Source: a virus
Length of the DNA stretch: 64,000 nucleotides
Strand: one strand, 5' to 3'
IMG/VR virus record: IMGVR_UViG_3300025405_000011
Coordinates: 1-64,000 of that record
Position 1 is the stretch's first letter. Every line of letters begins with the position of its first letter. Position numbers and translations under genes: made by a program. This document shows positions 1-64,000 of the stretch, in pieces. The notes under the pieces were generated by a model, which ran no database searches, was not told the DNA's origin, and was given only the letters and a program-made list of their open reading frames with translations.

Positions 1-127
1 TGCCCTGTGGTACAGTAGGGAGTTTGTGTGAAGACCACTCATTCCAATCAATTGAAGACAGAGGCTCCCATGGTATCCACTTACGGGTATTTTTATCAGC
101 AGCGTATCTAGTATTCCAATTAGTCAC
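1..127 (-). CDS. Partial hypothetical protein (MTNWNTRYAADKNTRKW...), runs off the window edge
   Basis: Manual translation from GTG at 127 is open to position 1. It shares the N-terminal W-x-x-R-Y-A motif with the ORF at 2463..2702. Confidence 0.6.
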   Translation of the reverse strand, partial: MTNWNTRYAADKNTRKWIPWEPLSSIDWNEWSSHKLPTVPQG

Positions 128-266
128 AGCAGGAATCCCTCCAGCCACAATTGCGACATTTGTAATGTGCATGTTCTGCATCCAATTTATAACCACAGTG
201 CTGACATTCTGAAAAGATGCCGAGACGGCAATATTGCTCAGTTGTCTTAGGCTTGGTCTCGTTCAT
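120..266 (-). CDS. Small Zn-ribbon protein
   Basis: Start re-called to MNETKPK. Two CxxC pairs (CQHC, CRNC) and a terminal CCD. Confidence 0.55.
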   Translation of the reverse strand: MNETKPKTTEQYCRLGIFSECQHCGYKLDAEHAHYKCRNCGWRDSCCD

Positions 267-468
267 CTTTTCTCCAGTGTAGATAACTCTTAATATAAGC
301 TCCACTGTAGAGTACAACCGCAAATATAAATCCATACTGATGGGTAGTGATGGCATAGATGGTCCAAAGACACTCACTTACCATTAGAATAAGCCAACCA
401 AACATGTTCTTTTTGCCCACTACATAGACTCCCAGAGAGCCAACAATGGCAAGAATCCAAGACCACAT
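247..468 (-). CDS. Small membrane protein, PnuC/nicotinamide riboside transporter-like
   Basis: 73 aa, three hydrophobic segments, GW-x-I...W-x-x-Y pattern typical of short phage PnuC-like proteins. Confidence 0.5.
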   Translation of the reverse strand: MWSWILAIVGSLGVYVVGKKNMFGWLILMVSECLWTIYAITTHQYGFIFAVVLYSGAYIKSYLHWRKDERDQA

Positions 469-2459: not shown

Positions 2460-2462
2460 TAT

Positions 2463-3253: not shown

Positions 3254-3256
3254 AAG

Positions 3257-3739: not shown

Positions 3740-3781
3740 TATGTTCCTTTGATAGAGTTACTATTTATTATAGTATGTTAT

Positions 3782-6436: not shown

Positions 6437-6496
6437 AGTGTATTTCCTTAGAAACGATCACTTCTTAGTCTAAGTTTCGGTAATATTTACATTAAT

Positions 6497-6573: not shown

Positions 6574-6574
6574 T

Positions 6575-6658: not shown

Positions 6659-6663
6659 AGCAG

Positions 6664-6750
6664 AGGAAGAAGAGGGATTCGAACCCTCGAAGGCTTTAAC
6701 ACCTTGGCTGTTTAGTAGACAGCTGCCTTAAACCACTCGGCCATTCTTCC
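6664..6750 (-). tRNA. tRNA-Ser with ACT anticodon
   Basis: GGAAGAATGGCCGAGTGGTTTAAGGCA GCTGT-CTACTAA-ACAGC, Ser-type long variable arm, T-arm GAGGG-TTCGAAT-CCCTC. No encoded CCA. Confidence 0.85.
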
Positions 6751-22433: not shown

Positions 22434-22800
22434 TCTTATATCCTCTTACTGTAAGAAACTTTTCACTAACATCAGAGAAGGTATGGATTTTTTTATTAAT
22501 CCATTCTCTAATGTCTTCATCTAGGTCATGTATACTTCTACCGTTAGAACCAATGGCCGAAATCTTGTCTTTACCGATCAAGATAAAACGCCATTGAATT
22601 GTAGGGTTATCTTTATTGGTCTCTTCGTGTCCGTAGAGTTGTACCCATCGGTTATCTAACCCACAGATAAAACCTTCATAGACGAAGCTATCACTATAGA
22701 TCTGTACTTCTTGTTTTCTACTAGCAATAATAGCCAAGTTTCTTTCGAACATGACTTCTTCACTTTGTGCTAACTTTTCTATTTTGTCCATTACGACCAC
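22408..22800 (-). CDS. Hypothetical protein, possible Sm/LSm-like fold
   Basis: KQEVQIY...YEGFICGLD...V-x-L...ISAI pattern. Confidence 0.45.
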   Translation of the reverse strand: MVVMDKIEKLAQSEEVMFERNLAIIASRKQEVQIYSDSFVYEGFICGLDNRWVQLYGHEETNKDNPTIQWRFILIGKDKISAIGSNGRSIHDLDEDIREWINKKIHTFSDVSEKFLTVRGYKNDNRKETR

Positions 22801-23351
22801 TCCATTGGGGAACTAGTTCCTTGATAAAAACCATTATACATCTTTGAACTACTTGCATTGAAGAACAACATCTGGGCAATACTAGAACCTACTTCGATAT
22901 AGCTCTCGGCTTGTACTGAGACCATCATACCACATGCTCCTTGATACCCACTATCGAATAGACCATTTTCTCCACTACACCCACTCTTGGCCATGGTACT
23001 TCTAACCAGAGTAAGTCCACAAATATTACCGGGTAGGTCTAGCTTAGCACTAAACTCTATCTGGTATCTCTGTCCGGGTTCTAAACGGTACATGTCTACA
23101 CTATTTTTAAGCTCTACATCTACAGGGTAGCTAAAAGCTCTAAGAGGAGAGTATTCTGGCAGTTGCCTTTGATTTTCTTTATTGGCAAACAATACCAGGG
23201 GCCCATTGATAGTATAGACATTTTCTACTCTTAAGTCAATACTATTCGGTTGGATATCTTCTTCATCTACTCCGGTAATAAAACCAAAGTCTACGATATC
23301 CTTAGGGTTAACAATACCGTTCATTATCGTCCTGATACTGCCCTTAGCCAC
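22791..23351 (-). CDS. dcd: dCTP deaminase/dUTPase family protein
   Basis: QPNSIDLRV, RSTMAKSG, FDSGYQG, IAQMLF. Confidence 0.85.
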   Translation of the reverse strand: MAKGSIRTIMNGIVNPKDIVDFGFITGVDEEDIQPNSIDLRVENVYTINGPLVLFANKENQRQLPEYSPLRAFSYPVDVELKNSVDMYRLEPGQRYQIEFSAKLDLPGNICGLTLVRSTMAKSGCSGENGLFDSGYQGACGMMVSVQAESYIEVGSSIAQMLFFNASSSKMYNGFYQGTSSPMEWS

Positions 23352-23887
23352 TCGTCCTTAACAGAAGGTTCTACGAAGTTACCACGAAGTGTACTGGTCA
23401 CTGTACTAGTTCCCGGCTTCTGTACTCCTCGCATGGCCATACAAAGATGCTCGGCCGAAATATAGACTCCTACACCTTGAGGTTGTAGTCCACAATCGTA
23501 GAGAGTGTCAGCAATCTGACTTCCTAGTCTCTCTTGTACTTGGAGTCTTTTGCTATAAGCATCAAGTACCCGAGCCAATTTACTGAGCCCAACAACACGA
23601 CCGCCCTTAGGGATATACCCAATAGTAGCAGTACCAAAGAAAGGAGCAAGGTGGTGCTCACAAAGGCTATAGAACGGGATGTCACGGACGATAACCATTT
23701 CATTTGAACCTTCTTTAAAGATAGCTTTTTCTACAAGAGCTTGAGGGTCAATATTATAACCAGCAGTCAACTCTTGATACATTTCTGATACTCTACGAGG
23801 AGTGTCCAATAGACCTTCACGCTCTGTATCTTCTCCCATTGAGGCCAGGAGTGCCTTTACTGCTACTTTACCTTCATCTAGGTACAT
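23324..23887 (-). CDS. folE: GTP cyclohydrolase I
   Basis: REGLLDTPRRV, SLCEHHLAPF, GLSKLAR, RLQVQER, HLCMAMRGV. Confidence 0.97.
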   Translation of the reverse strand: MYLDEGKVAVKALLASMGEDTEREGLLDTPRRVSEMYQELTAGYNIDPQALVEKAIFKEGSNEMVIVRDIPFYSLCEHHLAPFFGTATIGYIPKGGRVVGLSKLARVLDAYSKRLQVQERLGSQIADTLYDCGLQPQGVGVYISAEHLCMAMRGVQKPGTSTVTSTLRGNFVEPSVKDEWLRAVSGR

Positions 23888-23892: not shown

Positions 23893-24021
23893 TTACTCTT
23901 CTTTCTTTTCTTTTTTAGATATATAAAATTCTGCATTACAAAAATCACAAGTGATTAGTTCTTTGGGTTCTACTGCCCTAGAGGCTTTACTAAAGTCTCC
24001 GGTACACTCACTACACCTCAC
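23893..24021 (-). CDS. 42-aa Zn-ribbon microprotein between queE and folE (LysW-like spacing)
   Basis: GTG start overlapping the queE stop: MRCSECTGDFSKASRAVEPKELITCDFCNAEFYISKKEKKEE. Confidence 0.55.
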   Translation of the reverse strand: MRCSECTGDFSKASRAVEPKELITCDFCNAEFYISKKEKKEE

Positions 24022-24731
24022 TAGCGTGCACGTTCATTAGCAGGCCAGATATAGTTGTGTACTTGTACATTTAGACTCCAAGGGAGCTTGTTCTCTAGAA
24101 TTAGTTCTACTAGTTCACTAGTAGGAAACACATCCCAAGCACTACCAGCCCAGAATCGAACTCCCGGCTTGACTTCATCCTTGAGACTATTCCATACTTC
24201 AATGGCTAGTTCAAAGTCGTGTCTGTCTTTACAGACAAACTTAATACCACTACCACTACGAAGATTGAGAGCATTAGTTCTACGATTTTCTAGTTTAGTG
24301 TCCCCTTCACCAGAACCCAATAGTTTCCAGTCCATCATAAAGTTAACAGTTCTAAGAACATTCTCACTATAGATAAAACTACCATTAGAAAAACTCTCTA
24401 CTTCAAATCCTTCACTGACCAATAGCACAATGAGTTCTTCCATTTTACTATTGGGCTGTAGAAAGGGTTCTCCTCCAGTTAAACAGATATTATTGGCTCC
24501 AGTTTCTTCTCTCTTGTCTTTGCAGTCTTTGAGAAGTTCTTCTGGAGTACGCTTGTAACTACCACCTTCTGCTCCCCAGATCTTAGGATCTACAGCAAAA
24601 GGAGTATCACAAGGCCAGCCAGCACAAGTCATATTACAACCGGCAAATCTTACAAAGTGTGTAGGAATTCCGGTTCTAGGACCTTCACCCTGGGTACTAA
24701 CATAATGTTCTACTAATCTTAGATCAGCCAT
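24021..24731 (-). CDS. queE: 7-carboxy-7-deazaguanine synthase (radical SAM)
   Basis: STQGEG, FVRFAGCNMTCAGWPCDT, LTGGEPFLQ, NVQVHNYIW. Confidence 0.93.
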   Translation of the reverse strand: MADLRLVEHYVSTQGEGPRTGIPTHFVRFAGCNMTCAGWPCDTPFAVDPKIWGAEGGSYKRTPEELLKDCKDKREETGANNICLTGGEPFLQPNSKMEELIVLLVSEGFEVESFSNGSFIYSENVLRTVNFMMDWKLLGSGEGDTKLENRRTNALNLRSGSGIKFVCKDRHDFELAIEVWNSLKDEVKPGVRFWAGSAWDVFPTSELVELILENKLPWSLNVQVHNYIWPANERAR

Positions 24732-25239: not shown

Positions 25240-25695
25240 CTATACTCCTCTACAATAGGCCACCGATGTAGGCGTCTCCCACACGGCTACTTCATACAAC
25301 TTAAGATCGTTACCAAATTCTACCTCAATGTCGTTCTCAATCTGCTCCCAACCCCAACGAGCAATATTTTCTGCTGTAGGGATGTAGGGAAATACAATAT
25401 AGTTCCAGTCTTGCTCTTGGGAGATAGTTTCCATCATACTACGAACTATATCGTCATTTTGCCAAACAGCAAACCCATGATCTAGGACATCATGAATTCT
25501 ATTGTTCATAATTGTCTTAAGATTACCAAAGTCAATAAGCATTCCATGATCAGGACGGCTAGGGTCATCAATTATATCTCCTTCACAGGTTACTCGAACT
25601 TTATAACGGTGACCGTGTGGGTTTCGACATTTACTACCATGAGTACTAACACGGTGTCCTAGATCAAATTCGATTTCTTTACTAATAAGATTCAT
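25240..25695 (-). CDS. queD: 6-carboxy-5,6,7,8-tetrahydropterin synthase
   Basis: H-R...KC-x-N-x-HGH-x-Y, DFG, LDH, PTAENIA, WETPTS. Confidence 0.93.
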   Translation of the reverse strand: MNLISKEIEFDLGHRVSTHGSKCRNPHGHRYKVRVTCEGDIIDDPSRPDHGMLIDFGNLKTIMNNRIHDVLDHGFAVWQNDDIVRSMMETISQEQDWNYIVFPYIPTAENIARWGWEQIENDIEVEFGNDLKLYEVAVWETPTSVAYCRGV

Positions 25696-26678: not shown

Positions 26679-27893
26679 CTAGTTTTCCTCTACTGCTGCT
26701 CTTACACGCAAGAAAGCTGCAACTAGATCTCCACTCGGAGAGTTTAGAGCAGCATATAGTCTTACAACATTGGCTCCGTATAGTACACGTCCGGTAAATA
26801 CTTTATTGTTCCAAATTCTCTGTACTAGTCCATCAATCTCTACATCAGTATCGGTATTGATCTTCATACCGAGCATAAGTCCCAATCCATGTAGACTAGC
26901 TTCAGTGCAGCCTTGAAAAGCATGTCGTGCCTGTTCACCACGAGACCTTACCTGAGCCAAAAACACTGGGTCACTAGTGGCTCGAAACATAGCATACCCA
27001 GCGGCAACACTAACAGGATTTCCTCCAAAGGTGCTCAAGTGAGTAAAGGGATTGTCTACGCTCATAGAGTTCCATCGTTCACCACTAGACAAAACTGCTC
27101 CTAGAGGATATCCACCACCAAGAGCCTTACCTAGTGTAACTATATCTGGGTGTACATCTTGATACTGATCTAGTACAAACTGAGTACCAGTTCTACCAAA
27201 ACCCGTCTGTACTTCATCAATTACCAATAGTACTCCGTGGCTCTTACACCAGTCACTAACATACTTGGCCCATTCAGGGTCAATGGGTACTACCCCAGCT
27301 TCCCCCTGTACGAGTTCCATAAAGAAAGCAGCTCGGTTTCCATATTCCTCTGGGATTTCTTCTCCCTGCTGGACCCACCGAGTAAGCTCCGGACTAACCA
27401 TATGAGCGAAAGGCTCACGATAAGTTGGCTTATAAGTGAGACTAAGACTACCGAGACTACGACCATGGAATCCATCCTTTAGTGCTATAAAACCCTGTCT
27501 CCCAGTTGAGAGAGTGGCTAACTTCATTGCTAGTTCATTTGCTTCGGTACCACTAGTACAGAACCAAGTTCTACACTCTTCGGCAATACCATTACTCATA
27601 GTTAGAGTAGAAAACCTTTCGGCAAGAGCTTCAGCATATTTCAATTGCTCTTTAATATTAAACTCACCGTAGACATTAATATGAGCATACTTCTCTACTG
27701 TCCTCTTGACTGCTTTTTGAATAGGTCCATAGTTATGACCCATATTATTAACAGCAATACCACAAGCCATATCAAACATATCACCATACTCTTTGGTATG
27801 TAGGTAGCTACCTTGTGCACCTCTAATAGTAATATCATAGGGCCAAGGATTAGTTCTCGCTAGAAAGTCCATCTTCTTCTTTCTTTTGTTCAA
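26679..27893 (-). CDS. Class III PLP aminotransferase (ArgD/LysJ-like)
   Basis: SGTEANE, FHGRS, ELVQGEAG, DEVQTGFGRTG, TLGKALGGG (PLP Lys), STFGGNP. Confidence 0.93.
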   Translation of the reverse strand: MNKRKKKMDFLARTNPWPYDITIRGAQGSYLHTKEYGDMFDMACGIAVNNMGHNYGPIQKAVKRTVEKYAHINVYGEFNIKEQLKYAEALAERFSTLTMSNGIAEECRTWFCTSGTEANELAMKLATLSTGRQGFIALKDGFHGRSLGSLSLTYKPTYREPFAHMVSPELTRWVQQGEEIPEEYGNRAAFFMELVQGEAGVVPIDPEWAKYVSDWCKSHGVLLVIDEVQTGFGRTGTQFVLDQYQDVHPDIVTLGKALGGGYPLGAVLSSGERWNSMSVDNPFTHLSTFGGNPVSVAAGYAMFRATSDPVFLAQVRSRGEQARHAFQGCTEASLHGLGLMLGMKINTDTDVEIDGLVQRIWNNKVFTGRVLYGANVVRLYAALNSPSGDLVAAFLRVRAAVEEN

Positions 27894-28050: not shown

Positions 28051-29077
28051 CTCCTACATATATATCAAAATCATCAACAGTATCAAACTGTTCAAAGAAT
28101 TGTGGAAACTGCATATAACCGAGGTCACAAATTCTAGTAACCATAAGGTCTTCTAGTATATCATTTATTCCGTCATCTTCTCGAAGACAGGCTACTGTAC
28201 TAATACTACTATGCCACTTCTCGATAAATTCTTCTACTTCATCAAGGTAGTCTACTACACAAAATCTAGCATCTCCATATAGTGTAGTAAAAATCTCAGG
28301 ACTTATCAACTCTTCTCTGCGAATATACTTTTGTACATAATTAGCAGAGATAAATTGCTGTACTAATTCACTCTTACGAGTTAGTGGCAGTTTACCTCTA
28401 AACTGATCGACCATTTCTCCATACATAACAGTCATAATGTCACTAATTTCTTTCCATTGCTTTTCACTAACACGTCCTATAATTATATAGAACTTGGGAC
28501 TTAGGCAACCTTCTCCATAGAAAGAAAAGAAATCAAAACAAATTTCATTAATGGTAACTGGAGTAAGATCCTCAGCACGAATTATCCCAAAACTAAACTT
28601 GGGTCCATGGACGTGTACTGTTCTATGTTCACTCTCTAGACCAATAAAGGCGTCTACTGTATCTTGTCCTCCAAAGACCACTACATCAGTGGCTTCTTCT
28701 AGAGCAGTTCTCCACTCCTCAGAAAGTTTTAATTCATCACTAGCAGTATTAAAGACTTTAGTTTGAACATCTTTACCGTGATGTTCTATCACATTCTCAA
28801 TTAAGAAATATTCATCTAGAGTGGGTGCTTTAATAGTTACACTCTCGGGGCCAGCAAGCTTAAGGCATAAGAAGACACTTTTAGCAGTAGCACCAGGCAC
28901 ACTCTTGGCACCAATAATAACAAACTTTCTACCACTCTTTTCAGTATACTCTTCAAACTCCCTGGGGACCTCCATGGCCTCTATGGCCATACGATAGTCA
29001 GTCTCTAGAAATCGTCCATACTGAGAAAGTACACCAACCATATCTACTTCTGGATTAATTATCCATTGCTTGGGCAT
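28037..29077 (-). CDS. LuxC-like acyl-CoA/acyl-protein reductase
   Basis: VVFGGQDTV, HGPKFSFGII, and D-F-x-x-F-x-G-x-GCLSP (catalytic Cys); adjacent to the luxE-like gene. Confidence 0.75.
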   Translation of the reverse strand: MPKQWIINPEVDMVGVLSQYGRFLETDYRMAIEAMEVPREFEEYTEKSGRKFVIIGAKSVPGATAKSVFLCLKLAGPESVTIKAPTLDEYFLIENVIEHHGKDVQTKVFNTASDELKLSEEWRTALEEATDVVVFGGQDTVDAFIGLESEHRTVHVHGPKFSFGIIRAEDLTPVTINEICFDFFSFYGEGCLSPKFYIIIGRVSEKQWKEISDIMTVMYGEMVDQFRGKLPLTRKSELVQQFISANYVQKYIRREELISPEIFTTLYGDARFCVVDYLDEVEEFIEKWHSSISTVACLREDDGINDILEDLMVTRICDLGYMQFPQFFEQFDTVDDFDIYVGDASG

Positions 29078-30128
29078 AAGTTAAGCTACATCCTTTCTCA
29101 GGAGCATTGGTTGCCCTTCCTTCCAATACTAGTGTTGGAGGCCCATCTGAACTATACTTAAAGTGACCCACATCTTCAGTTAATATAAAAGGACAACTCC
29201 AGATATTGGCTAGATCTACAAAGGCAATAATTCCACTTTCCCCATCTTTAACTTCAGTCTGAGTAAGTGGGTCTACTAAACGAACATTTAACCAGTTAGG
29301 CCATTCGTATTCTACTTCTTGAGAGTTACCGGTAGCATAAAGTTGGCTACTAATTTCACTCATACTATATTCTCGAATACTATCTTGAGGACTAATCCCA
29401 AAAAAGTCAGATACTCTAGCAGTTAGTTGACTAGCAGTAAGTTTAATATCTCTGCCCTTCCAACCACCAGTTTCAATAAATATAGAACCTTCTGGAAGTT
29501 TTATGGGCATTAGAGAAGAATTATTAATTGTAGTCATTAGGTCATAGAAAGCTAAACTAGTACCAAATAACAATACTGGTTCTTCCTCTTTTGCTAGATC
29601 TAATTCAATAAAACTTCTGACTCTCTGGGGGTCAGTCATTCCTTCAAAACGTTCAGTAATTCCTCTACGATCATGCTGAGCTGAGATATGTACCATCATA
29701 TAGTAGAGACTACTATTACCTAATACTGGAGTTAACAATATCACTCGATACTTGGGGAATGGAGAACCATCTACAAATGCTCTAAACCCTTCTGCAATAC
29801 TAATTCTATAGGCTTCAGTATCATACATACGATGCATACTCTTATCACCTTGAGTAGTACCACTAGAGTGAAATTCTATTCCGGGAAAGGGCATACGGTC
29901 ACTAAGTACAATACCTACATCATGTCTTTTAAACTCACTAATAGGCATAAGTGGAATTTCTCTCCAGTCAGAGAGTTCTCCAATACTATAACGCTCGTAT
30001 ACTGGATTTAATTCTCGATGTAGATCATAGAGTCCGAGTGCAATCTCACCAAACTTCTCTTGGTGTAACGGATTCCTAACAAACTCAGTAGCATTCTTTA
30101 TAGCTCTATCAATCTCGTTCTTATTCAT
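29055..30128 (-). CDS. LuxE-like acyl-protein synthetase (adenylate-forming)
   Basis: IPLMPISEFK, FHSSGTT, ETGGWKGR, EYSMSE, DLAN...ILTEDVG, LEGR...KGCS. Start re-called to MNKNE. Confidence 0.85.
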   Translation of the reverse strand: MNKNEIDRAIKNATEFVRNPLHQEKFGEIALGLYDLHRELNPVYERYSIGELSDWREIPLMPISEFKRHDVGIVLSDRMPFPGIEFHSSGTTQGDKSMHRMYDTEAYRISIAEGFRAFVDGSPFPKYRVILLTPVLGNSSLYYMMVHISAQHDRRGITERFEGMTDPQRVRSFIELDLAKEEEPVLLFGTSLAFYDLMTTINNSSLMPIKLPEGSIFIETGGWKGRDIKLTASQLTARVSDFFGISPQDSIREYSMSEISSQLYATGNSQEVEYEWPNWLNVRLVDPLTQTEVKDGESGIIAFVDLANIWSCPFILTEDVGHFKYSSDGPPTLVLEGRATNAPEKGCSLTYAQAMDN

Positions 30129-33438: not shown

Positions 33439-35183
33439 TAGATATTAGGCCTTTGAGCAGTTGCTATAAAACCCTTCTCCAATTCTACATCAAAGGGAGC
33501 CCAAGTAGGAAAGTTCCATTCTCTACTCTCATAGATTCTTTTGGCTGGTCTATCTGGGTTATAGAGACCGGCTTCTACAAACTGTCTAGCAAACTCAAAA
33601 CAGTCACGAATTTGTTCTGGATCAGTAGTATTGGGGAAACATCTAAACTCTACAGTACCATGAGCAAATACACTACGAACATTAATACCTGCACGGTGTA
33701 CCCCAATATGATACTGTCTCTTACCAAGTCGTTCATTAAAGTGAAAGTGACCATCATAAAACTCTTGAGGAGTAGTAGCATCTAGAATAGCTTGCCAACG
33801 AGTGGGAGGAACTCCTTGCTTGGTCCAAAGATTTTTTTGTCTATTGAACTTCATAGCCAATGCATAATCTTGCTTGTTAGGATATTCTCCTTCTCTAGGA
33901 CGTTCACGAGGCAGCATATCAGTGAATACAAAATCTTGGTTTTTAATTGTATAGTCAAATAGACTCTTGAGTGCTTCGACATCATCTACTAGTCCTGGAA
34001 CTCCAATGTGTAGTTGTAAACTACCACGGTATAGTGCTTTGGGGTCTAGTAGGTCTCTTAGAGTAGAGGCAATCTCTACTTGTCTCTCGATAGAATCTGT
34101 TGGTAGAGTATTGATCTCTCCTCCATAAAAGTTTCTCTGGAGAGTGGGATCATTGGCTCTACCATCTGAGTTAACAATGGTCCATTCCTTGGGACTCCAT
34201 CGTCCACAGTCCTCTGGCAGTTTAATTCGAGCGTCACAGTCACTCCACTCTAGTTCAGCACCATAAGTAAAAGTTCCCAAACGCTTTTTCCTTTTCTCTA
34301 TAATCTTTTTTCTTGCTGCTGCAGCATTAGGGTCTGGGTACTCCATATACTTATGCTTGGTCGCTAGAAATCCCTTTTCTAGTTCCGGAAGGAACTCTTG
34401 CCATTGAGGGAAGTTCCAAGTTTTACTCTCATAAATTTCTCTAGCAGTTCTACTAGGATTATACAGAGCAGCTTCCATATATTGCTTGGCAAACTCTAGT
34501 GCATCTCTTACTTGCTCAGGATCTGTTGTTCCGGCAAAGACACGAAATTCTGTAGTCCCGTGCTTAAAGATTGCTCTAATGTTAATTCCAGCTCGAACAA
34601 TTCCGATGTGATAGAGTCTACGTCCGAGCTTTTCATTATACTGGAAGTGGTAATCATAAAATTCTTTACAGGTTGTTGAATTGAGAATATCTTGTGCACG
34701 ATTTAATGGTACTCCTTGTTTGGCCCAATAGTTTTGTTGACGATAGAAGTTTTTTGCTAGTTTAAGATCTCCCTTGTCTGGAAACTTTTCTTCCGTAGGC
34801 TCAGTGTAAGGAAGCATATCAAAGTATACAAAGTTTTGATTGTCTTGAGTATATTGGAACAGTTGCTTTAGTGCATCTAGGTCCTCTTTTAGACCTTCTA
34901 CTCCTACATGTACGTGTAGATTAGCCCGGTAAAAGGATAGAGGACTTAAAAGATCTCTGAGTTCAGTTACGATGGCAACTTGTTCTTCTATAGAGTCAGT
35001 TGGTTTAGTATTAATCTCTCCACCAAGATGAGTCTTTTTCATAGTGGGGTCATTGGCTTGACCATCACTGTTAACTAGAGTGGCATCATCTTTGTTCCAA
35101 GTGGCAGTAGGGGGTAGTTCTATTCTACGGTCTACATCACTCCATTCGAGCTCTAACCCATAAGTAAACTTACCCAATGTCAT
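33438..35183 (-). CDS. Tandem two-domain amidoligase
   Basis: Two copies of TYG-x-ELE / GGEINT / H-x-H-x-G / GT-x-EFR. Start re-called to MTLGKF. Confidence 0.8.
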   Translation of the reverse strand: MTLGKFTYGLELEWSDVDRRIELPPTATWNKDDATLVNSDGQANDPTMKKTHLGGEINTKPTDSIEEQVAIVTELRDLLSPLSFYRANLHVHVGVEGLKEDLDALKQLFQYTQDNQNFVYFDMLPYTEPTEEKFPDKGDLKLAKNFYRQQNYWAKQGVPLNRAQDILNSTTCKEFYDYHFQYNEKLGRRLYHIGIVRAGINIRAIFKHGTTEFRVFAGTTDPEQVRDALEFAKQYMEAALYNPSRTAREIYESKTWNFPQWQEFLPELEKGFLATKHKYMEYPDPNAAAARKKIIEKRKKRLGTFTYGAELEWSDCDARIKLPEDCGRWSPKEWTIVNSDGRANDPTLQRNFYGGEINTLPTDSIERQVEIASTLRDLLDPKALYRGSLQLHIGVPGLVDDVEALKSLFDYTIKNQDFVFTDMLPRERPREGEYPNKQDYALAMKFNRQKNLWTKQGVPPTRWQAILDATTPQEFYDGHFHFNERLGKRQYHIGVHRAGINVRSVFAHGTVEFRCFPNTTDPEQIRDCFEFARQFVEAGLYNPDRPAKRIYESREWNFPTWAPFDVELEKGFIATAQRPNI

Positions 35184-35520
35184 AAGTAAAGGCCTTAATC
35201 TTTTCATTGTTCTGATCTATTTCCATTACTTTGGCTGGTTCATACTCTGTACTAGTTTTACGAGTAAATAGAATACACTTGTCTCCAATTTCTCCTAAAC
35301 GAGCACCTCCACCGTTTAAGTGGAACTCTCTATCTGGACCATAGAGTACATAAGTTTCCCACCGAAGACCGTTGTTAGCATTTACACAATAGATCCACTC
35401 ATATTCTTCAATACCAAGTTCCAGGCAGTAGTTTTCTGGAATAGTAACAGAACCATGGTAGTCCAAACTCTTATGAGTTACTCTAATTCCATGTAGCTTG
35501 GCTCCTACATATTGTCTCAT
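35170..35520 (-). CDS. panD: Aspartate 1-decarboxylase (pyruvoyl)
   Basis: KLH, YHG|SVT autocleavage site, NG-x-R-x-ETY, NGGGAR. Confidence 0.9.
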   Translation of the reverse strand: MRQYVGAKLHGIRVTHKSLDYHGSVTIPENYCLELGIEEYEWIYCVNANNGLRWETYVLYGPDREFHLNGGGARLGEIGDKCILFTRKTSTEYEPAKVMEIDQNNEKIKAFTYDIG

Positions 35521-40076: not shown

Positions 40077-40084
40077 GATAAAAG

Positions 40085-40156
40085 TACCTCCACTCGGAAT
40101 CGAACCGAGATCAATGGGTTAGAACTCCAGTGCACTATCCGTTGTGCTATAGAGGC
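40085..40156 (-). tRNA. tRNA-Arg(TCT) with an imperfect anticodon stem
   Basis: GCCTCTA TA GCAC AACGGATA GTGC A CTGGA GTTCTAA CCCAT TGAT CTCGG TTCGATT CCGAG TGGAGGT A; GGATA D-loop carries the A20 Arg identity element. Confidence 0.7.
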
Positions 40157-44292: not shown

Positions 44293-45057
44293 CTACATCA
44301 GTCGTAAAGTACCATACTTTGTAGGGTTATTGGAATAGAGTTCTATTCTTCTTTGAGCTGATTTAGTCATCTCTTCTGAGATATCATTGGTAATAAAATT
44401 TCTTTTATTCTCTACTGCAGCTTGTGCAGTTACTCCACTGCCACCAAAAGGGTCTAGTACTGTATCCCCTGGCCTAGTGTAGAGTTGTATAAATTTATGT
44501 GCAAGCCCAATAGGGTAGGTGTCCAGTAAAAAACCTACTCCTTCTTTTTCTAGTTCTTGGTCTAGTAATTGCCCTATATTATTGTTTATCCCAGGACCCA
44601 ATCCCCAGTCTCTTTTCTTTATGTTTTTATTAAAAGGCAAGTGTGATGAAGATCTAGCTAGATGAAACCACAATACTTGAGATCCATTCATTGTCTCTAG
44701 AAAAGAATGGGGAACATTATAGTCCCAAGTAGTAAAGCCCAAATAGTGTAGCTTGGTTTTTTTTAAAACTTTGGCTAGGTAGAGATAGGGCATAGCTCTC
44801 TGATCTCCAATACAGATAAATAGACTACCATTGGGCTTTAAAACACGTTCCATCTCTTTGGTAGACTTAACTAGCATAGACAACATATCTACTTGACTAT
44901 GTCCAAAGTTTATCTGCTTTTGTGGATCACCCTTATAACGTTCTACATCTATGTCAAGATAGGGTGGGTGGGTAATAATTAAATCTATACTACCACTAGG
45001 GATGTCTAGTTTACGAGCATCTCCTATGATGAACTTATTGTTTTCAGATTGATACAT
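44293..45057 (-). CDS. Amino-(N4-C/N6-A) DNA methyltransferase, beta class
   Basis: IDLIITHPPY (motif IV variant) precedes VLDPFGGSG (motif I). Confidence 0.8.
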   Translation of the reverse strand: MYQSENNKFIIGDARKLDIPSGSIDLIITHPPYLDIDVERYKGDPQKQINFGHSQVDMLSMLVKSTKEMERVLKPNGSLFICIGDQRAMPYLYLAKVLKKTKLHYLGFTTWDYNVPHSFLETMNGSQVLWFHLARSSSHLPFNKNIKKRDWGLGPGINNNIGQLLDQELEKEGVGFLLDTYPIGLAHKFIQLYTRPGDTVLDPFGGSGVTAQAAVENKRNFITNDISEEMTKSAQRRIELYSNNPTKYGTLRLM

Positions 45058-45475
45058 TGCTTTTGGGTTTACGACCTCGTCCAGAGATTTTAACTCTATT
45101 GGCCTCTGACTCTTTTCTAGCCATAGAACTATCCATCCAATATAGTGCTTCGGGTTTATGGCAGTTAATATTCATTTTTTTTCGAATACTAACTCTTTGT
45201 TTCTCACTAGTACCAGCCCAATAGCCATAATGCTCATGATGTAGAGCATGTTCAAGACATTGCTTTTGTACTGGACAGTCCTCACATGTCTGTACTAGTA
45301 TCGGGTCTACTAACTCTCCTTGTGTTGGAAAGAACATTTCAGTTGCTAGGCCTTTACAGAGTGCTTGATCTTGCCATCTAAAGTCTATTTTATTTTTACT
45401 TATTACGGTCACTTTAGTGTTTTTTCTATTTCTCTTAGACGAGGAATTACTCGTGTTTCTACTTCTCGGTCCCAA
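45044..45475 (-). CDS. whiB: WhiB-family transcriptional regulator
   Basis: WQDQALC...FFP...C-x-x-CPV-x-x-QC...GYWAG-x-S-x-x-QR and an AT-hook-like GRGRKPK. Confidence 0.9.
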   Translation of the reverse strand: MGPRSRNTSNSSSKRNRKNTKVTVISKNKIDFRWQDQALCKGLATEMFFPTQGELVDPILVQTCEDCPVQKQCLEHALHHEHYGYWAGTSEKQRVSIRKKMNINCHKPEALYWMDSSMARKESEANRVKISGRGRKPKSNVSI

Positions 45476-57248: not shown

Positions 57249-57250
57249 AA

Positions 57251-60935: not shown

Positions 60936-60943
60936 TTAATCTC

Positions 60944-61549
60944 CTACTTAGTTGGTGTTAATAATGACGGGAATAGAGCTGTAATTTGATCAAGATTAAT
61001 CGATAGTCCAGCTTTACTAAGACCAGTCCAACCGGGGCTAAACCCAATACCTGCAGCTATTTGATCTAGTGCTGCAGCAGTACTAGTTTGTGCTGTAATA
61101 GCATTAAAGTCTTGTTCTACTTCTAGTTGTAGCATGTAAGGATAGGTAACAGTACTAACATCCCAGCCCATCTGCATTTGGGTGACCCATACTCTAAAAC
61201 CCAAATTGGTACTGGCACTATAAGTAACTACCGGAATACTTAGAGTCATACTCTGTTGATGAGTATTCTGACTATCCTGCATAGCTTTTATATTAGTATA
61301 CATGTCTAATAGTGCTGCTCTACTACCGGCCTCTCCTTGAATAGACATAGTGCTAATTTTAACTGATACTAGTTGAGTAACACGTCCACCAATGGTATCA
61401 AATGATCTATTGTTCATTTGATATTGCCACTCAACTCCATTTACATTAAAAGGAAAGTTATAGGTTTTACCAGTAATAGCATCATACATAGTGGCAGTAC
61501 TACTCTTGGTATTATTAGTAGAATTAGTATAGCCAAGTGTATTAGACAT
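60944..61549 (-). CDS. Tail-tube-initiator-like protein
   Basis: F-x-x-N...W-x-Y...T-x-GGRV-x-Q; immediately after the tape measure gene. Confidence 0.55.
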   Translation of the reverse strand: MSNTLGYTNSTNNTKSSTATMYDAITGKTYNFPFNVNGVEWQYQMNNRSFDTIGGRVTQLVSVKISTMSIQGEAGSRAALLDMYTNIKAMQDSQNTHQQSMTLSIPVVTYSASTNLGFRVWVTQMQMGWDVSTVTYPYMLQLEVEQDFNAITAQTSTAAALDQIAAGIGFSPGWTGLSKAGLSINLDQITALFPSLLTPTK

Positions 61550-64000
61550 TATGCATTACTTCCGGGAGTAGGTTTGGTATTGGCACTAGCTTGTCCTGTA
61601 CTAGCTTTTTGGCCTGTATAAGTAGAGCCATTTTCTAGTTGAGTTAACCACTTTTGAGCACCTGCAGTAAGAGTAAATGTATGAGTAGAGTTATTATAGG
61701 TTAGTCCCGATACATTTTGAGAAGTAGCATATGGAGTAGCATTGGCATAGTCTTTGACTCCCTTAGAAGTTAAAAATGCACTAACACTTTGAGCTCCATA
61801 GTTTTTGGCCCCAACTCCCATACCACTAACTTGAGCTGCTCCACTGGCTAGCATTGCCATTACCTTGGATTCACCACCAAATTCCTTAATTGCATTGTCC
61901 CAGGATACTGCTTTACCATTGACTACTATTGATTTAGCACCTTGTTCTAGAGTTAGTTGTGCTGCATTTGCCCCATAGTTATAGCCCATTTCAGTGTCTC
62001 TATAGGCACCACGGAAAGCTTTACCACTATCACTCATTGTTCTGAGTGCTTGATCACGTAGAGATTGTCCAGTGTTTCCCCCATCAGGTATATATCCAGC
62101 AGTATAACCTACAACTCCTTCAGCAAGTCCTAGAGCTCCTTCAGCAATTCCCTTAACTGAATTACCAACACCCGCTGCAACTGTCTCTAGAAAACCCCCC
62201 CACCCACTGCTATGTTTATGAGCAAGATCTGTAGTCATCTTCTTTTTAGCGGCATTTGCTTTCTTTTGTGGTTGATTACTATAGAAGTTCCAGAAATATT
62301 CAGCAGCAGCCTTAGGAGTATCCATACTCTTCTTTAGGCCTACTGATTGACCAATCATCTGTAGCATTTGAGGGTTAGACCCGGACATAAACTGACCCTT
62401 GGTGAGTCCTGGTTCAATACCAGCAAAGCCTATAATTTGCATAGCAACACTTCGTTCATCTCCAAGTAGAGTGGCTCCAGCATTATTGCCCATACTGTTT
62501 AATTTTCCAGCCACTTCCATATAGCCCACACCCAGTTGCTGAGCTAGTAGTGCTGTACCCACTTGTGTATTGAGTATTTCACTTCCGTTAACTCCTTGTT
62601 GCTGTAAGAACTGATTGCCTTGACCAAACATTGCTGAACCTTGACCAAATATACCTGCAGCTGCACCATTTAATCCTATACCGGCTCCAGTTATTGCTCC
62701 GCCTTGAGCCGCTTGGTTAGTATAGGCTGTACTGGTATTGGTACCTTGCATACCGCCCAGTGCTCCACCAATCATACCGCCTACTTGGCTAAGACTCATA
62801 CCGCCTAAAATACCAGCTTGTGCATATTGCTGACTGGCTTGATTGGTTAGACCATAACGAGCGAGATTGTTTAGAGCATAAGAGACATATTGACTATTGG
62901 CATTACCTTGATAACCCAAACCCATTCCAGCCATTTGTGCTTGTACTACATCTTGTGAGCTTACAAATGGGTTGAGTCCAAATCCCGACTTAAACATAGC
63001 CTGTAGACCTAGACCCATAGCATTTTGTTGATTGTTAGCACCCGTCATACTACCATACTGTTCAGATACTTTCATAAACTGTTGTATTGGAGCCATTACT
63101 GCTCTAGCTGCATTATAGCCAAATGCAGCTACAGTAACTGCTTGTGTTAGTACTGGAATCTTATCTAGTAGAGTAAAAGCAAACTTGCCTATTGTGCCTT
63201 CTAGTCGAGAAATCATTTTTTCTTCATGTTTACCAAAAGGACTTGTACCTTTTTCAAACTTGCGTCCCACTGGCCCGACTTCTCCAGTTATAGGGTCAAC
63301 TCCTCCGTAAACAGAGTCTTCTGCAGTTTGCTGTTCACGAGCAATACGTCCAGCATAGTTTCTTAGAGTTCTACGAGCAAACTGTGCCATTAGTCCACCA
63401 CCCTGTGGACCACTAACACTACGTAGTGTTTCTTGACCGTACTTGACTAGTTCTCCAGCCGGATTAGTTATGTCCATGTTGTTCTTTTTAACTATATCAT
63501 AGACACTGGGATAGTTCTTTTTAAAGTATTCTTGGTAGGGGTTGTTGGCAGATGAGTTGTTGGGACTAACACTCAGTCTACGGTAACCGCGACTATTATA
63601 TTCATTGCTAAGGTCATCATCGTAGCCATCATCTCCACCGCCTCCACCGCCTCCACCGCCTCCTCCACTGCCACTGCCATTACCTCCAGCACCAGCACTA
63701 GCACCACCACCAGCTGTAGGAAGTCCTCCTCCAACTGTTTCAACTCGAGGACCTCTTCTGCCCCAGTTGACCACTCTTCGAGCATAACCGGCTCTATCAA
63801 TGCTTTCTGGAATACCGTTTATAGTGGTTTCTTGACGGCCTGGTAGATCGGGATTTGAGATTGAACCGGCATCAGGGTTATAGCTAGAGCCTCTGACCAT
63901 ATTGTTCATATTGCCAAATCCACCAAATGGAAGTCCATATTGACCTAGTGTACTAAGCACTTGGTTTCCATTAACACCTAGACTACGAGCGGCTGTTAAA
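61549..64000 (-). CDS. Tape measure protein (5' end probably outside the window)
   Basis: Gly/Ala/Gln-rich long ORF upstream of the baseplate genes; the frame stays open to the window edge. Confidence 0.7.
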   Translation of the reverse strand, partial: LTAARSLGVNGNQVLSTLGQYGLPFGGFGNMNNMVRGSSYNPDAGSISNPDLPGRQETTINGIPESIDRAGYARRVVNWGRRGPRVETVGGGLPTAGGGASAGAGGNGSGSGGGGGGGGGGGDDGYDDDLSNEYNSRGYRRLSVSPNNSSANNPYQEYFKKNYPSVYDIVKKNNMDITNPAGELVKYGQETLRSVSGPQGGGLMAQFARRTLRNYAGRIAREQQTAEDSVYGGVDPITGEVGPVGRKFEKGTSPFGKHEEKMISRLEGTIGKFAFTLLDKIPVLTQAVTVAAFGYNAARAVMAPIQQFMKVSEQYGSMTGANNQQNAMGLGLQAMFKSGFGLNPFVSSQDVVQAQMAGMGLGYQGNANSQYVSYALNNLARYGLTNQASQQYAQAGILGGMSLSQVGGMIGGALGGMQGTNTSTAYTNQAAQGGAITGAGIGLNGAAAGIFGQGSAMFGQGNQFLQQQGVNGSEILNTQVGTALLAQQLGVGYMEVAGKLNSMGNNAGATLLGDERSVAMQIIGFAGIEPGLTKGQFMSGSNPQMLQMIGQSVGLKKSMDTPKAAAEYFWNFYSNQPQKKANAAKKKMTTDLAHKHSSGWGGFLETVAAGVGNSVKGIAEGALGLAEGVVGYTAGYIPDGGNTGQSLRDQALRTMSDSGKAFRGAYRDTEMGYNYGANAAQLTLEQGAKSIVVNGKAVSWDNAIKEFGGESKVMAMLASGAAQVSGMGVGAKNYGAQSVSAFLTSKGVKDYANATPYATSQNVSGLTYNNSTHTFTLTAGAQKWLTQLENGSTYTGQKASTGQASANTKPTPGSNA
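63633..63666. repeat. 9-bp tandem repeat (CCTCCACCG) encoding poly-Gly
   Basis: Three or more copies visible; GGGGGGGGGGG in the protein. Confidence 0.7.

What the first reader, a model, noticed from the sequence alone, without database searches (positions are those of the whole stretch)
1..64000. Genome-wide CTAG/TA over-representation with CpG depletion
Seen, by hand counts: CTAG occurs 10 times in 4801-5400 and 8 times in 55201-55800, against about 2 expected at 40% GC. CG occurs only 7 and 5 times in the same intervals, against about 24 expected. ACTAGT and TCTAGA are frequent, and CTA, AGT and AGA codons are heavily used. Established: CTAG is usually among the most avoided tetramers in bacteria and phages. 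Inference: either selection for target sites of the phage's own modification enzyme, or a mutational drive (C>T/G>A) caused by modified bases.
Basis: partly seen in the sequence, partly recalled or inferred. Interest (0 to 1): 0.7.

Follow-up and report, generated by a model that had tools for sequence, protein, structure and literature searches.

The report
CTAG-rich, CpG-poor actinophage DNA signature
This uncultured phage really has twice the expected CTAG and half the expected CG, but CTAG is only a by-product of a broader neighbour-base bias around G, seen only in the family branch that carries genes for a modified guanine.

Summary
The hand counts are exact. CTAG occurs 478 times in 64 kb against 229 expected from base composition, the highest ratio of all 256 tetramers. 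CpG is at 0.46 of expectation. TA is not over-represented (1.04).

The CTAG excess is not site-specific. Dinucleotide frequencies predict 398 sites and trinucleotide frequencies predict 450 (ratio 1.06, z 1.8).

The real feature is a DNA-level signature: CG low, AG/CT high (1.29), GC low, TA not depleted. It appears at all codon positions, at codon junctions and in intergenic DNA. It survives synonymous shuffling. It is unlike all 223 background loci, 79 of them actinobacterial. It is relaxed in the major capsid gene and in the early block.

Among relatives, it is strong only in records carrying a 7-deazaguanine cassette (FolE, QueD, QueE, a TGT-fold protein). Five cassette-less relatives have CpG 0.64-0.78 and CTAG 0.63-0.92, but they form one clade, so this is roughly one contrast.

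The phage's DNA methylase is absent from relatives that share the bias, so it cannot be the cause. The link to guanine modification is plausible but unproven.

The scan noted CpG depletion with CTAG excess on another genome before (e1-5325883, unchecked).

The parts
1..64000 (.). Nearest-neighbour composition signature: CpG 0.46, AG/CT 1.29, GpC 0.84, TpA 1.04, CA/TG 1.01, CTAG 2.09. AGCT, CATG, GCGC and CGCG are avoided.
22791..23351 (-). dCTP-deaminase-like gene at the head of the cassette. Present only in cassette-bearing relatives.
   Evidence: PHROG phrog_1663, E 1.9e-12; distribution among relatives
23324..23887 (-). GTP cyclohydrolase I (FolE)
   Evidence: Pfam PF01227, E 2.3e-69
24021..24731 (-). 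Radical-SAM protein, QueE-like
   Evidence: Pfam PF04055, E 3.5e-8, and PF13353. The QueE reading is inferred from context.
25240..25695 (-). 6-pyruvoyl-tetrahydropterin synthase family (QueD)
   Evidence: Pfam PF01242, E 2.5e-32
26679..27893 (-). Class III aminotransferase, restricted to cassette-bearing relatives
   Evidence: Pfam PF00202, E 1.6e-67; distribution
29055..30215 (-). LuxE-like acyl-protein synthetase, restricted to cassette-bearing relatives
   Evidence: Pfam PF04443, E 1.6e-11; distribution
31064..31927 (-). TGT-fold protein, a candidate DNA guanine transglycosylase (DpdA-like)
   Evidence: No Pfam, PHROG or PDB sequence match. AlphaFold2 model with pLDDT 67.7 and pTM 0.70. 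The 50 best Foldseek PDB matches shown are all tRNA-guanine transglycosylase, E 3.7e-5 to 1.8e-4. It co-occurs with FolE/QueD/QueE in relatives.
32572..35207 (-). Amidoligase genes: a single one (32572-33438) and a double one (33438-35207)
   Evidence: Pfam PF12224; PHROG phrog_2443. The double one is shared with G002/G004, G847, G848 and G850, and is absent from G849.
35170..35520 (-). Aspartate decarboxylase (PanD)
   Evidence: Pfam PF02261, E 1.3e-23
44293..45057 (-). N6/N4-type DNA methyltransferase, found only in this phage among the relatives compared. Not the cause of the shared bias.
   Evidence: Pfam PF01555, E 3.6e-26; no tblastn hit in 8 relatives; sequence
45044..45475 (-). WhiB-family regulator, a pointer to an actinobacterial host
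   Evidence: Pfam PF02467, E 1.2e-15
6663..6750 (-). tRNA-Ser with anticodon ACT, cognate to AGT, the top Ser codon
   Evidence: ARAGORN; also present in G837/G849
40084..40156 (-). tRNA-Arg with anticodon TCT, cognate to AGA, the top Arg codon
   Evidence: ARAGORN

Best explanation
Shown. The CTAG excess is not a signal at the CTAG site. It is a by-product of a DNA-level nearest-neighbour signature that covers about 120 kb of this 132.6-kb phage genome.
- G is rarely preceded by C, and is preceded by T less often than in relatives.
- G is preferentially preceded by a purine (AG/CT and GG/CC are raised).
- GpC is low and TpA is not depleted.
- Because CT, TA and AG all sit at or above expectation, and CTA is the preferred Leu codon in this clade, CTAG doubles.
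- The signature is present at all codon positions, across codon junctions and between genes.
- It is unlike the candidate hosts sampled.
- It is overridden in the major capsid gene, where translational selection is the likely reason.
- Within the phage family it is strong only on the branch that carries a 7-deazaguanine cassette.

Inferred. The most likely cause is long-term selection on the contexts in which G occurs.
- A TGT-fold DNA transglycosylase, like the known DpdA enzymes, would modify G only in certain neighbour contexts.
- Guanines that cannot be protected would stay exposed to host restriction and be purged. These would be CpG and GpC, which form the core of GC-rich restriction sites.
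- Synonymous choices would then shift towards protected or harmless contexts.
- Ordinary site-specific restriction avoidance is layered on top: AGCT, CATG, GCGC and CGCG in this phage, and CTAG in relative G848.
- The phage tRNAs for AGT and AGA, and the tRNA-Leu(TAG) of a relative, would compensate for the resulting codon usage that is unlike the candidate hosts sampled.
For: CTAG decomposition.
- Observed 478; expected 229 (zero order), 398 (dinucleotide) and 450 (trinucleotide).
- In the 82% relatives the ratio of observed CTAG to the dinucleotide expectation is 1.00-1.03.

The signature acts at the DNA level.
- CG o/e is 0.67 at codon positions 1-2, 0.34 at positions 2-3 and 0.55 at junctions.
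- CT o/e at the same three places is 1.20, 1.17 and 1.83; AG is 1.02, 1.41 and 1.21.
- The 3.1 kb of intergenic DNA has CG 0.61, AG/CT 1.28 and CTAG 2.04.
- The bias survives synonymous permutation, with z +6.7 for CTAG and -20.5 for CG.
- There is no CTAG-specific junction effect: 0.412 of CTA codons are followed by G, against 0.395 for other NNA codons.

Not host-like.
- None of the 223 background loci has CTAG above 1.2; the maximum is 1.11.
- Streamlined Actinomycetia genomes of 47-50% GC have CpG 0.89-1.22, CTAG 0.20-0.59, and RSCU of 0.55 for CTA, 0.54 for AGT, 0.51 for AGA and 2.46 for CGC.

Major capsid gene (identified).
- It has no CTAG and CpG 0.91.
- Pooled with its neighbour gene, RSCU is 0.75 for CTA, 0.17 for AGA and 5.33 for CGT.
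- It is only 75-77% identical in nucleotides to relatives although 97-98% identical in protein, so it is not a recent import.

Comparative pattern, whole records.
- Cassette plus amidoligase (G000, G002, G004, G847, G848): CpG 0.43-0.50, AG/CT 1.18-1.28, CA/TG 0.99-1.09.
- Cassette only (G837/G849): CpG 0.38, AG/CT 1.10, CA/TG 1.21.
- Cassette-less (G838-G843): CpG 0.64-0.78, AG/CT 1.03-1.11, CA/TG 1.13-1.34. In these the cassette is missing at the syntenic spot while the flanking genes are present.
- Ratio of the first group to the cassette-less group by G context: GGA 1.42, AGT 1.40, GGG 1.37; CGC 0.32, CGT 0.62, TGC 0.76.

The transglycosylase and known precedents.
- The TGT fold of 31064-31927 is supported.
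- Known DpdA enzymes are context-specific, and they protect only restriction sites that contain the modified context. CAjan uses GA and GGC (PMC7544227, passages read). Phage iggy uses GA (PMC10484667, passages read).

Site-specific avoidance on top.
- AGCT is at 0.68 here (z -8.7).
- In G848, CTAG is at 0.73 of the trinucleotide expectation while AGCT is at 2.17 of the zero-order expectation.
Against: - The five cassette-less relatives form a single clade (support 100/100). Cassette and composition therefore co-vary over roughly one event, plus one more for the amidoligase-less G849. Shared ancestry or a host switch could give the same picture.
- The known DpdA motifs depend on the 3' neighbour of G (GA, GGC). 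Here GA is at 1.02 and the shift is mainly in the 5' neighbour.
- In CAjan and iggy the share of G that lies in GA (24% and 16.6%) shows no obvious enrichment of the target.
- The early block of the same genome lacks the AG/CT excess (1.02) although its CpG is low (0.39) and its CA/TG is 1.46. The model does not explain this.
- Two unrelated phage loci carrying FolE/QueE/QueD have AG/CT of 1.20 and 1.02.
- The distant cassette-bearing lineage G850 has normal CpG (1.04).
- No modification data exist for this phage, and its host is unknown.
Confidence: 0.4

Rival explanations
1. Lineage-specific mutational bias. The replication and repair machinery or the dNTP pools of this branch drive the composition, and selection plays no role. 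Candidates are the dCTP-deaminase-like gene that heads the cassette, or misreading and mis-repair of modified G.
For: - CpG is the most divergent dinucleotide between G000 and its 97-99% identical twin G003 (7.2% against 3.1-5.2%).
- 241 of 262 CpG interchanges are CG<->CA/TG, and 1720 of 2295 SNPs are transitions.
- The bias is weaker in the most highly expressed gene, as expected for a weak genome-wide pressure.
- It is also weaker in a fibre segment that is 83% identical in nucleotides to a cassette-less relative.
- A dCTP-deaminase-like gene is part of the cassette.
Against: - A CpG transition drive should raise TG/CA. It is 1.01 in the window and lower than in the cassette-less relatives (1.13-1.34).
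- CG<->CT/AG interchanges are rare, 14 of 262, so the AG/CT gain does not come from CpG.
- The early block of the same replicon does not share the AG/CT excess.
- Modification at position 7 does not touch the base-pairing face (general chemistry, recalled).
Confidence: 0.25
2. Host-specific pressure unrelated to the cassette. This branch infects a different host, and that host's restriction systems and other DNA-level defences shaped the composition. The cassette travels with the branch by descent only.
For: - Cassette and composition co-vary over about one split of the tree.
- Site-specific avoidance differs between close lineages: AGCT here; GATC 0.20 and AGCT 0.45 in G837; CTAG in G848. This indicates differing restriction environments.
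- GCGC (3) and CGCG (7), each against 98 expected, are nearly absent.
Against: - Avoidance of a few sites does not explain a general 5'-neighbour shift across all G contexts.
- It also does not explain a C|T junction ratio of 1.83.
- No sampled actinobacterial genome resembles the phage.
Confidence: 0.2
3. Translational adaptation. Codon usage (CTA, AGT, AGA, ACT) is tuned to the phage's own tRNAs or to the host tRNA pool, and CTAG follows from that.
For: - The phage encodes tRNA-Ser(ACT) and tRNA-Arg(TCT), and relative G002 encodes tRNA-Leu(TAG).
- Codon usage alone lifts the expected CTAG count from 221 to 361.
Against: - The major capsid gene avoids AGA and CTA and uses CGT.
- The bias is also present at codon junctions and in intergenic DNA.
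- G002 and G004 use AGT even more (RSCU 3.5-3.6), yet the Ser tRNA found in G002 has anticodon GCT and none was found in the G004 fragment.
- Candidate hosts have the opposite preferences.
Confidence: 0.08
4. CTAG (or ACTAGT/TCTAGA) is itself selected as the target of a phage-encoded DNA methyltransferase.
For: An N6/N4-family DNA methyltransferase is encoded at 44293-45057.
Against: - CTAG o/e against the trinucleotide expectation is 1.06, and the hexamers are as predicted.
- The methyltransferase has no homologue in G004, which shares the bias and covers both flanking genes, or in 7 other relatives.
Confidence: 0.03

Closest known systems
Dinucleotide 'genome signatures' and CTAG under-representation in bacteria
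   Same: A genome-wide, position-independent nearest-neighbour bias that propagates into tetramer frequencies.
   Different: The sign is opposite to the usual one. CTAG is the most over-represented tetramer here. In the 223 background loci its median o/e is 0.10-0.34 and its maximum is 1.11. The signature is also unlike the sampled candidate hosts.
Context-specific 7-deazaguanine (dPreQ0) modification by DpdA in phages CAjan and iggy (PMC7544227, PMC10484667; passages read)
   Same: A FolE/QueD/QueE cassette beside a TGT-fold protein. In those phages G is modified only in defined neighbour contexts, and only restriction sites containing that context are protected.
   Different: No QueC was seen among the ORFs I scanned, and the TGT-fold protein has no sequence-level match. 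The known motifs depend on the 3' neighbour (GA, GGC), and GA is not enriched here. In the passages I read, neither paper reports a compositional footprint of the modification.
CpG depletion linked to CpG-specific cytosine methyltransferases
   Same: Strong CpG deficit in a phage genome.
   Different: No such methyltransferase was found among the ORFs scanned. The one DNA methylase present is unique to this phage, while the CpG deficit is shared by relatives without it. There is no reciprocal TG/CA excess in the window.
Restriction-site (palindrome) avoidance in phages
   Same: AGCT (0.68), CATG (0.63), GCGC and CGCG are depleted beyond their Markov expectation, and different sites are depleted in different relatives.
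   Different: The feature under study is an enrichment. It disappears under the same Markov correction that reveals the avoided sites.

Membership tests
Site-specific selection on a palindrome (restriction or modification target) | The count deviates from the maximal-order Markov expectation | tested here: not met
   CTAG: 478 observed against 450 expected (1.06, z 1.8). ACTAGT: 79 against 72.8. TCTAGA: 65 against 63.3. For comparison, AGCT does meet the criterion (0.68, z -8.7).
Site-specific selection on a palindrome (restriction or modification target) | A cognate enzyme is shared by the genomes that share the bias | tested here: not met
   The methyltransferase at 44293-45057 is absent from all 8 relatives compared. 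This includes G004, which shares the bias and covers both flanking genes.
Codon-usage artefact | The bias vanishes when amino-acid sequence and codon usage are held fixed | tested here: not met
   Within-gene synonymous permutation of 80 window ORFs, 200 shuffles: CTAG 447 against 361 +/- 13; CG 1086 against 1517 +/- 21. Codon usage does explain most of the rise in expected CTAG, from 221 to 361.
Classical CpG decay by cytosine methylation and deamination | CpG deficit with a reciprocal TpG/CpA excess | tested here: not met
   In the window CpG is 0.46 but CA/TG is 1.01. The feature is met only in the early block outside the window (CpG 0.39, CA/TG 1.46) and in relatives.
Classical CpG decay by cytosine methylation and deamination | A CpG-specific C5 cytosine methyltransferase | tested here: inconclusive
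   None was found among the window ORFs scanned against Pfam or PHROGs. Not every ORF was scanned.
Host-matched (ameliorated) composition | Phage dinucleotide and codon usage resemble those of the host | tested here: not met
   The test used sampled candidates only; the host is unknown. 79 actinobacterial loci have CpG 0.74-1.50 and CTAG at most 0.85. The Pearson r between phage and streamlined-Actinomycetia RSCU is 0.18 for the bulk of the genes and 0.50 for the capsid gene.
Phage 7-deazaguanine DNA modification system | FolE, QueD and QueE are present | tested here: met
   PF01227 and PF01242 match strongly. QueE is seen only as radical-SAM/4Fe-4S matches.
Phage 7-deazaguanine DNA modification system | A DpdA/TGT-family transglycosylase is present | tested here: inconclusive
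   Support is at fold level only. The model has pLDDT 67.7. The top 50 Foldseek matches are all TGT, with TM-scores 0.42-0.51 and about 10% identity. There is no sequence-level match.
Phage 7-deazaguanine DNA modification system | QueC or another route to preQ0 | tested here: inconclusive
   No QueC family match was found among the cassette ORFs scanned. LuxE-like and aminotransferase genes are present instead.
Phage 7-deazaguanine DNA modification system | A modified guanine is present in virion DNA | not testable with these tools
   No nanopore run was listed for this sequence.

The most novel reading that the evidence does not exclude
The genome composition is an evolutionary footprint of a new DpdA-like enzyme's context specificity. 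Guanines preceded by a purine (AGT, AGA, GGA and similar) would carry a hypermodified 7-deazaguanine, perhaps amide-extended by the amidoligases and PanD. The phage would have recoded about 120 kb towards modifiable G contexts and away from unmodifiable CpG and GpC, helped by its own tRNAs. If so, a modification motif could be read directly from sequence statistics.
Probability: 0.2. Interest if true: 0.8.

Novelty: new variant of a known kind. Interest (0 to 1): 0.45.

Why it matters
If the shift in G contexts is caused by context-specific guanine hypermodification, base composition alone could do two things. It could flag modified phage genomes in metagenomes, and it could predict the motif of an uncharacterised transglycosylase. 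It would also be the first case, as far as my two literature searches show, in which a DNA modification system has visibly reshaped codon usage, with the phage tRNA set possibly following.

If the link is not causal, the finding remains a well-documented example of a phage whose composition departs strongly from the candidate hosts sampled. That matters for host-prediction methods that rely on k-mer similarity.

Tried and rejected
Identification and host.
- A megablast of a 3.3-kb gene against named phages gave no match.
- A tblastn with the polymerase found only relatives at 35% identity or less, all high-GC actinophages.
- A FolE scan of bacterial genomes gave 80 loci from many phyla and was not diagnostic of the host. 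I kept these loci as background only.
- One locus labelled as a freshwater actinobacterial family led to an order whose 61 sampled genomes had no WhiB match. This was a dead end.
- WhiB searched against 401 Actinomycetota genomes gave a best identity of 44% and no host-level match.
- RecA searched against 401 Actinomycetia genomes had its best matches in single-contig genomes of 1.3-1.5 Mb. The identity is only 33-34%, so I treat these as candidate hosts, not as the host.

Methyltransferase specificity. Only distant PDB relatives were found, of both N4C and N6A types, and motif IV is unusual. I made no call on its target.

Wider relatives.
The other 77 were not analysed.
- The polymerase of the distant lineage G850 found only one further relative, and that one also carries the cassette. 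It therefore gave no independent contrast.

Polarising the 2295 SNPs with outgroups.
- Only 256 could be polarised.
- The result was net CpG gain and net AG loss.
- That is exactly what mis-polarisation by outgroups saturated at silent sites would produce.
- I treat it as uninformative.

Other rejected ideas.
- G-to-T transversion at CpG as the source of the CT/AG excess: rejected, because only 14 of 262 CpG interchanges are of that type.
- Strand purine loading as an artefact behind the AG/CT excess: by my own arithmetic on the base counts it inflates the expectation by less than 1%.
- Nanopore runs holding this sequence: none was listed.

Rows dropped.
- Background summaries leave out loci shorter than 5 kb: 2 of 80, 11 of 60 and 5 of 71.
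- The trees leave out G837 (a near-copy of G849) and G003. G002 lacks both marker genes.
- Genes were called by my own longest-ORF rule, not by a gene finder.

Unpublished genomes. Four of the 30 WhiB background loci (L101, L103, L106, L112) come from genomes flagged as unpublished.

Supplements. Supplementary files of the papers were not opened. They may hold motif tables relevant to DpdA specificity.

Full report
WHAT THE WINDOW IS

The window is the first 64 kb of a 132,618-bp virus record, G000.
- In my ORF calls, all genes up to about 122 kb lie on the minus strand. A block of about 10 kb at the far end lies on the plus strand.
- Identified genes include a large terminase, a DnaE-like polymerase, RecA, a primase, a DnaB-type helicase, baseplate and tail proteins, a WhiB regulator and an Rpf-like transglycosylase domain.
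- It is therefore a large tailed phage, most likely of an actinobacterium.
- Named phages are at most 35% identical in the polymerase.

THE OBSERVATION

Over the window:
- CTAG occurs 478 times against 229 expected from base composition (o/e 2.09). This is the largest ratio of all 256 tetramers.
- No dinucleotide-preserving shuffle out of 100 reached 478; the shuffles gave 397 +/- 19.
- CpG o/e is 0.46, AG/CT 1.29, GpC 0.84 and CA/TG 1.01.
- TpA is 1.04, so TA itself is not over-represented.
- GCGC (3) and CGCG (7) are almost absent against 98 expected each, and the trimer GCG/CGC is at 0.16.
- Every 10-kb bin of the window shows the pattern.
- The last 12 kb of the genome does not show it: CTAG 0.55-0.66.

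As background I used four sets of loci: 78 bacterial, 30 + 49 actinobacterial and 66 unrelated DnaE-phage loci. In all four sets CTAG o/e never exceeds 1.11, and AG/CT exceeds 1.2 in only 2 loci.

IS IT ABOUT CTAG?

No.
- The expected CTAG count rises from 229 (base composition) to 398 (dinucleotide frequencies) to 450 (trinucleotide frequencies). The residual is 1.06, z 1.8.
- ACTAGT and TCTAGA are as predicted from their pentamers.
- In the two relatives at 82% polymerase identity, CTAG equals its dinucleotide expectation (1.00-1.03).
- In reading frame, CTAG occurs as CTA|G (265) and xCT|AGx (182).
- Once the general junction preferences are taken into account, CTA is followed by G no more often than other NNA codons are (0.412 against 0.395). 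NCT is followed by AG only slightly more often than other NNT codons are (0.090 against 0.079).
- Stop codons contribute 9 of the 478 sites.

IS IT CODON USAGE?

Partly.
- CTA, AGT, AGA and ACT are the top codons of their families (RSCU 2.3, 3.0, 2.75, 2.3), and GCG is at 0.04.
- Holding protein sequences fixed and drawing codons from position-specific base frequencies gives 221 CTAG. Permuting the real synonymous codons within each gene gives 361 +/- 13. The observed number is 447.
- CG is 1086 against 1517 +/- 21 in the same test.
- So codon usage carries most of the effect but not all of it.

The bias behind the codon usage is itself visible everywhere.
- CG is low at codon positions 1-2 (0.67), at positions 2-3 (0.34) and across junctions (0.55).
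- CT is high at the same three places (1.20, 1.17, 1.83), and AG is 1.02, 1.41 and 1.21.
- The 3.1 kb of intergenic DNA has CG 0.61, AG/CT 1.28 and CTAG 2.04.
- This is a property of the DNA, not of decoding.

IS IT THE HOST?

The host is not identified.
- I sampled Actinomycetota broadly and Actinomycetia broadly.
- The phage RecA matched best, though weakly, in single-contig genomes of 1.3-1.5 Mb.
- Twenty of these, at 47-50% GC, have CpG 0.89-1.22 and CTAG 0.20-0.59.
- Their codon usage is the opposite of the phage's: RSCU 0.55 for CTA, 0.54 for AGT, 0.51 for AGA and 2.46 for CGC.
- No sampled actinobacterial locus of at least 5 kb has CpG below 0.74 or CTAG above 0.85.

The phage's own major capsid gene behaves differently from the rest of the genome.
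- It lies at 92283-93296, outside the window, and matches PHROG phrog_2522.
- It has no CTAG and CpG 0.91.
- Pooled with its neighbour gene, RSCU is 0.75 for CTA, 0.17 for AGA and 5.33 for CGT.
- Of all genes it correlates best with the candidate-host usage (r 0.50, against 0.18 for the bulk).
- It is 97-98% identical in protein but only 75-77% identical in nucleotides to relatives, so it is not a recent import.
- The simplest reading is that translational selection overrides a weaker genome-wide pressure. The phage tRNAs for AGT and AGA, and the tRNA-Leu(TAG) of relative G002, would then compensate for codons that are rare in the candidate hosts.

RELATIVES

The polymerase has many uncultured relatives. 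I rebuilt 13 virus records from 20-kb pieces.

Whole-record values:

| Record (polymerase identity) | CpG | AG/CT | CA/TG | CTAG |
|---|---|---|---|---|
| G000 | 0.49 | 1.23 | 1.09 | 1.89 |
| G004 (82%) | 0.47 | 1.26 | 1.04 | 1.66 |
| G002 (82%) | 0.50 | 1.28 | 0.99 | 1.68 |
| G847 | 0.43 | 1.18 | 1.06 | 1.25 |
| G848 | 0.44 | 1.20 | 1.05 | 0.85 |
| G837/G849 (72%) | 0.38 | 1.10 | 1.21 | 1.12 |
| G838-G843 (60-67%) | 0.64-0.78 | 1.03-1.11 | 1.13-1.34 | 0.63-0.92 |

Gene content by tblastn with all window proteins:
- A cassette is present in the first six records or record groups of the table. It comprises the dCTP-deaminase-like gene, FolE, a QueE-like gene, QueD, a class III aminotransferase, a LuxE-like gene and the 287-aa protein at 31064-31927.
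- The cassette is missing at the syntenic position in the five cassette-less records (G838-G843), although the flanking genes are present there.
- The 287-aa protein has no sequence-level family match. Its model (pLDDT 67.7) matches tRNA-guanine transglycosylases in all 50 top Foldseek hits.
- The double amidoligase is shared by G002/G004, G847, G848 and G850, but not by G849.
- The N6/N4 DNA methyltransferase was not found in 8 relatives, including G004, which shares the bias and covers both flanking genes. It cannot be the cause of the shared bias.
- PanD, the single amidoligase and a second methyltransferase-like gene are also missing from G002 and G004, but they do occur in G847 and G848.

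What changed, expressed per G:C pair, is mainly the 5' neighbour of G.
- In the cassette-plus-amidoligase records, relative to the cassette-less clade: GGA 1.42, AGT 1.40, GGG 1.37 and AGG 1.28 go up.
- CGC 0.32, CGT 0.62, CGA 0.69, TGC 0.76 and TGT 0.76 go down.

The CTAG excess proper needs one more ingredient, the CTA preference.
- CTA RSCU is about 2.0-2.2 only in G000, G002 and G004.
- In G848 it is AGCT that is inflated (2.17), while CTAG is below its trinucleotide expectation (0.73). Here AGCT is depressed (0.68).
- This swap looks like ordinary restriction avoidance acting on an AG/CT-rich background.

HOW STRONG IS THE LINK TO THE CASSETTE?

Weak in statistical terms.
- In trees of the helicase and of a glycosyltransferase, the five cassette-less records form one clade (support 100/100). 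That makes one contrast.
- G849, which lacks the amidoligase, sits among amidoligase-bearing records. That may add a second contrast.
- A distant cassette-bearing lineage, G850 and L413, has AG/CT 1.24-1.33. However, it also has GA at about 1.5 and CpG of 1.04 (G850) and 0.84 (L413), so its signature is different. No cassette-less relative of it was found.
- Two unrelated phage loci with FolE/QueE/QueD have AG/CT 1.20 and 1.02.

MUTATION OR SELECTION?

G003 is a 97-99% identical twin of G000, with 2295 SNPs over 108,587 aligned bases.
- 1720 of the SNPs are transitions.
- CpG is the most divergent dinucleotide (7.2% against 3.1-5.2%).
- Its interchanges are almost all with CA/TG (241), not with AG/CT (14) or CC/GG (7).
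- The AG/CT excess does not come from CpG, and TG/CA is not raised in the window.
- Polarising the SNPs with distant outgroups was uninformative.

The early block has low CpG (0.39) with high CA/TG (1.46), low TA (0.71) and no AG/CT excess. That is the classical pattern, and it is also the pattern of the cassette-less relatives. None of my models explains why the early block differs from the rest of the genome.

WHAT IS KNOWN

In the passages I read:
- DpdA of phage CAjan modifies G in GA and GGC. DpdA of phage iggy modifies G in GA only.
- Restriction sites are protected only when they contain the modified context (PMC7544227; PMC10484667).
- A third subfamily, DpdA3, replaces all G (PMC10516641, abstract and passages).

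Two full-text searches turned up no paper connecting deazaguanine modification with dinucleotide or codon bias (listings only). A search on CTAG over-representation in phages found nothing relevant (listing only).

VERDICT

- The CTAG reading is wrong in its strict form.
- The feature is a lineage-specific nearest-neighbour signature around G.
- My preferred cause is selection on G contexts, tied to context-specific guanine hypermodification and to restriction avoidance. I hold this at about 0.4.
- Mutation bias (0.25) and an unrelated host effect (0.2) are serious rivals.

Noticed in passing
window 6663-6750: A tRNA-Ser with the rare anticodon ACT sits in a Met-Tyr-Ser tRNA cluster. The same tRNA is present in relatives G837 and G849. 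Relative G002 instead has tRNA-Ser(GCT) together with tRNA-Leu(TAG), tRNA-Val(AAC) and tRNA-Trp. Yet G002 and G004 use AGT even more (RSCU 3.5-3.6).
   Followed up: partly
G000 92283-93296 (outside the window; L296:8283-9296): The major capsid gene has codon usage unlike the rest of the genome: no CTAG, CpG 0.91, CGT for Arg and almost no AGA. Its protein is 97-98% identical to relatives whose polymerase is only 65-67% identical, while its DNA is only 75-77% identical to theirs.
   Followed up: yes
G000 about 122,600-132,500 (outside the window): The plus-strand early block has a different signature from the rest of the genome: CpG 0.39, CA/TG 1.46, TA 0.71, AG/CT 1.02, CTAG 0.64. It has no nucleotide-level match in any relative fetched. 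The cause is unexplained.
   Followed up: partly
window 1-64000: AGCT (203 observed, 296 expected), CATG (141 observed, 223 expected), GCGC (3) and CGCG (7) are avoided beyond their Markov expectation. Relatives avoid other sites: GATC at 0.20 and AGCT at 0.45 in G837, and CTAG in G848. This suggests differing restriction environments.
   Followed up: partly
window 28037-29077: The LuxC-like reductase gene lies inside the cassette region, but it has homologues (45-61% identity) in all five cassette-less relatives. It may therefore not belong to the deazaguanine pathway.
   Followed up: partly
window 44293-45057: This N6/N4-family DNA methyltransferase reads H-P-P-Y at the place of motif IV, where D/N/S-P-P-Y/F is usual (the usual form is recalled). 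It was not found in 8 relatives. Its target is unknown.
   Followed up: partly
window 22791-23351: A dCTP-deaminase-like gene heads the deazaguanine cassette and travels with it in every cassette-bearing lineage, including the distant lineages G850 and L413 (41-42% identity).
   Followed up: partly
G000 about 84,000-88,000 (outside the window): Part of the 2058-aa fibre gene is 83% identical in nucleotides to the cassette-less relative G841, well above the roughly 65-70% seen elsewhere. The gene also has a weaker bias (AG/CT 1.11, CTAG 1.40). It looks like a more recent exchange.
   Followed up: partly
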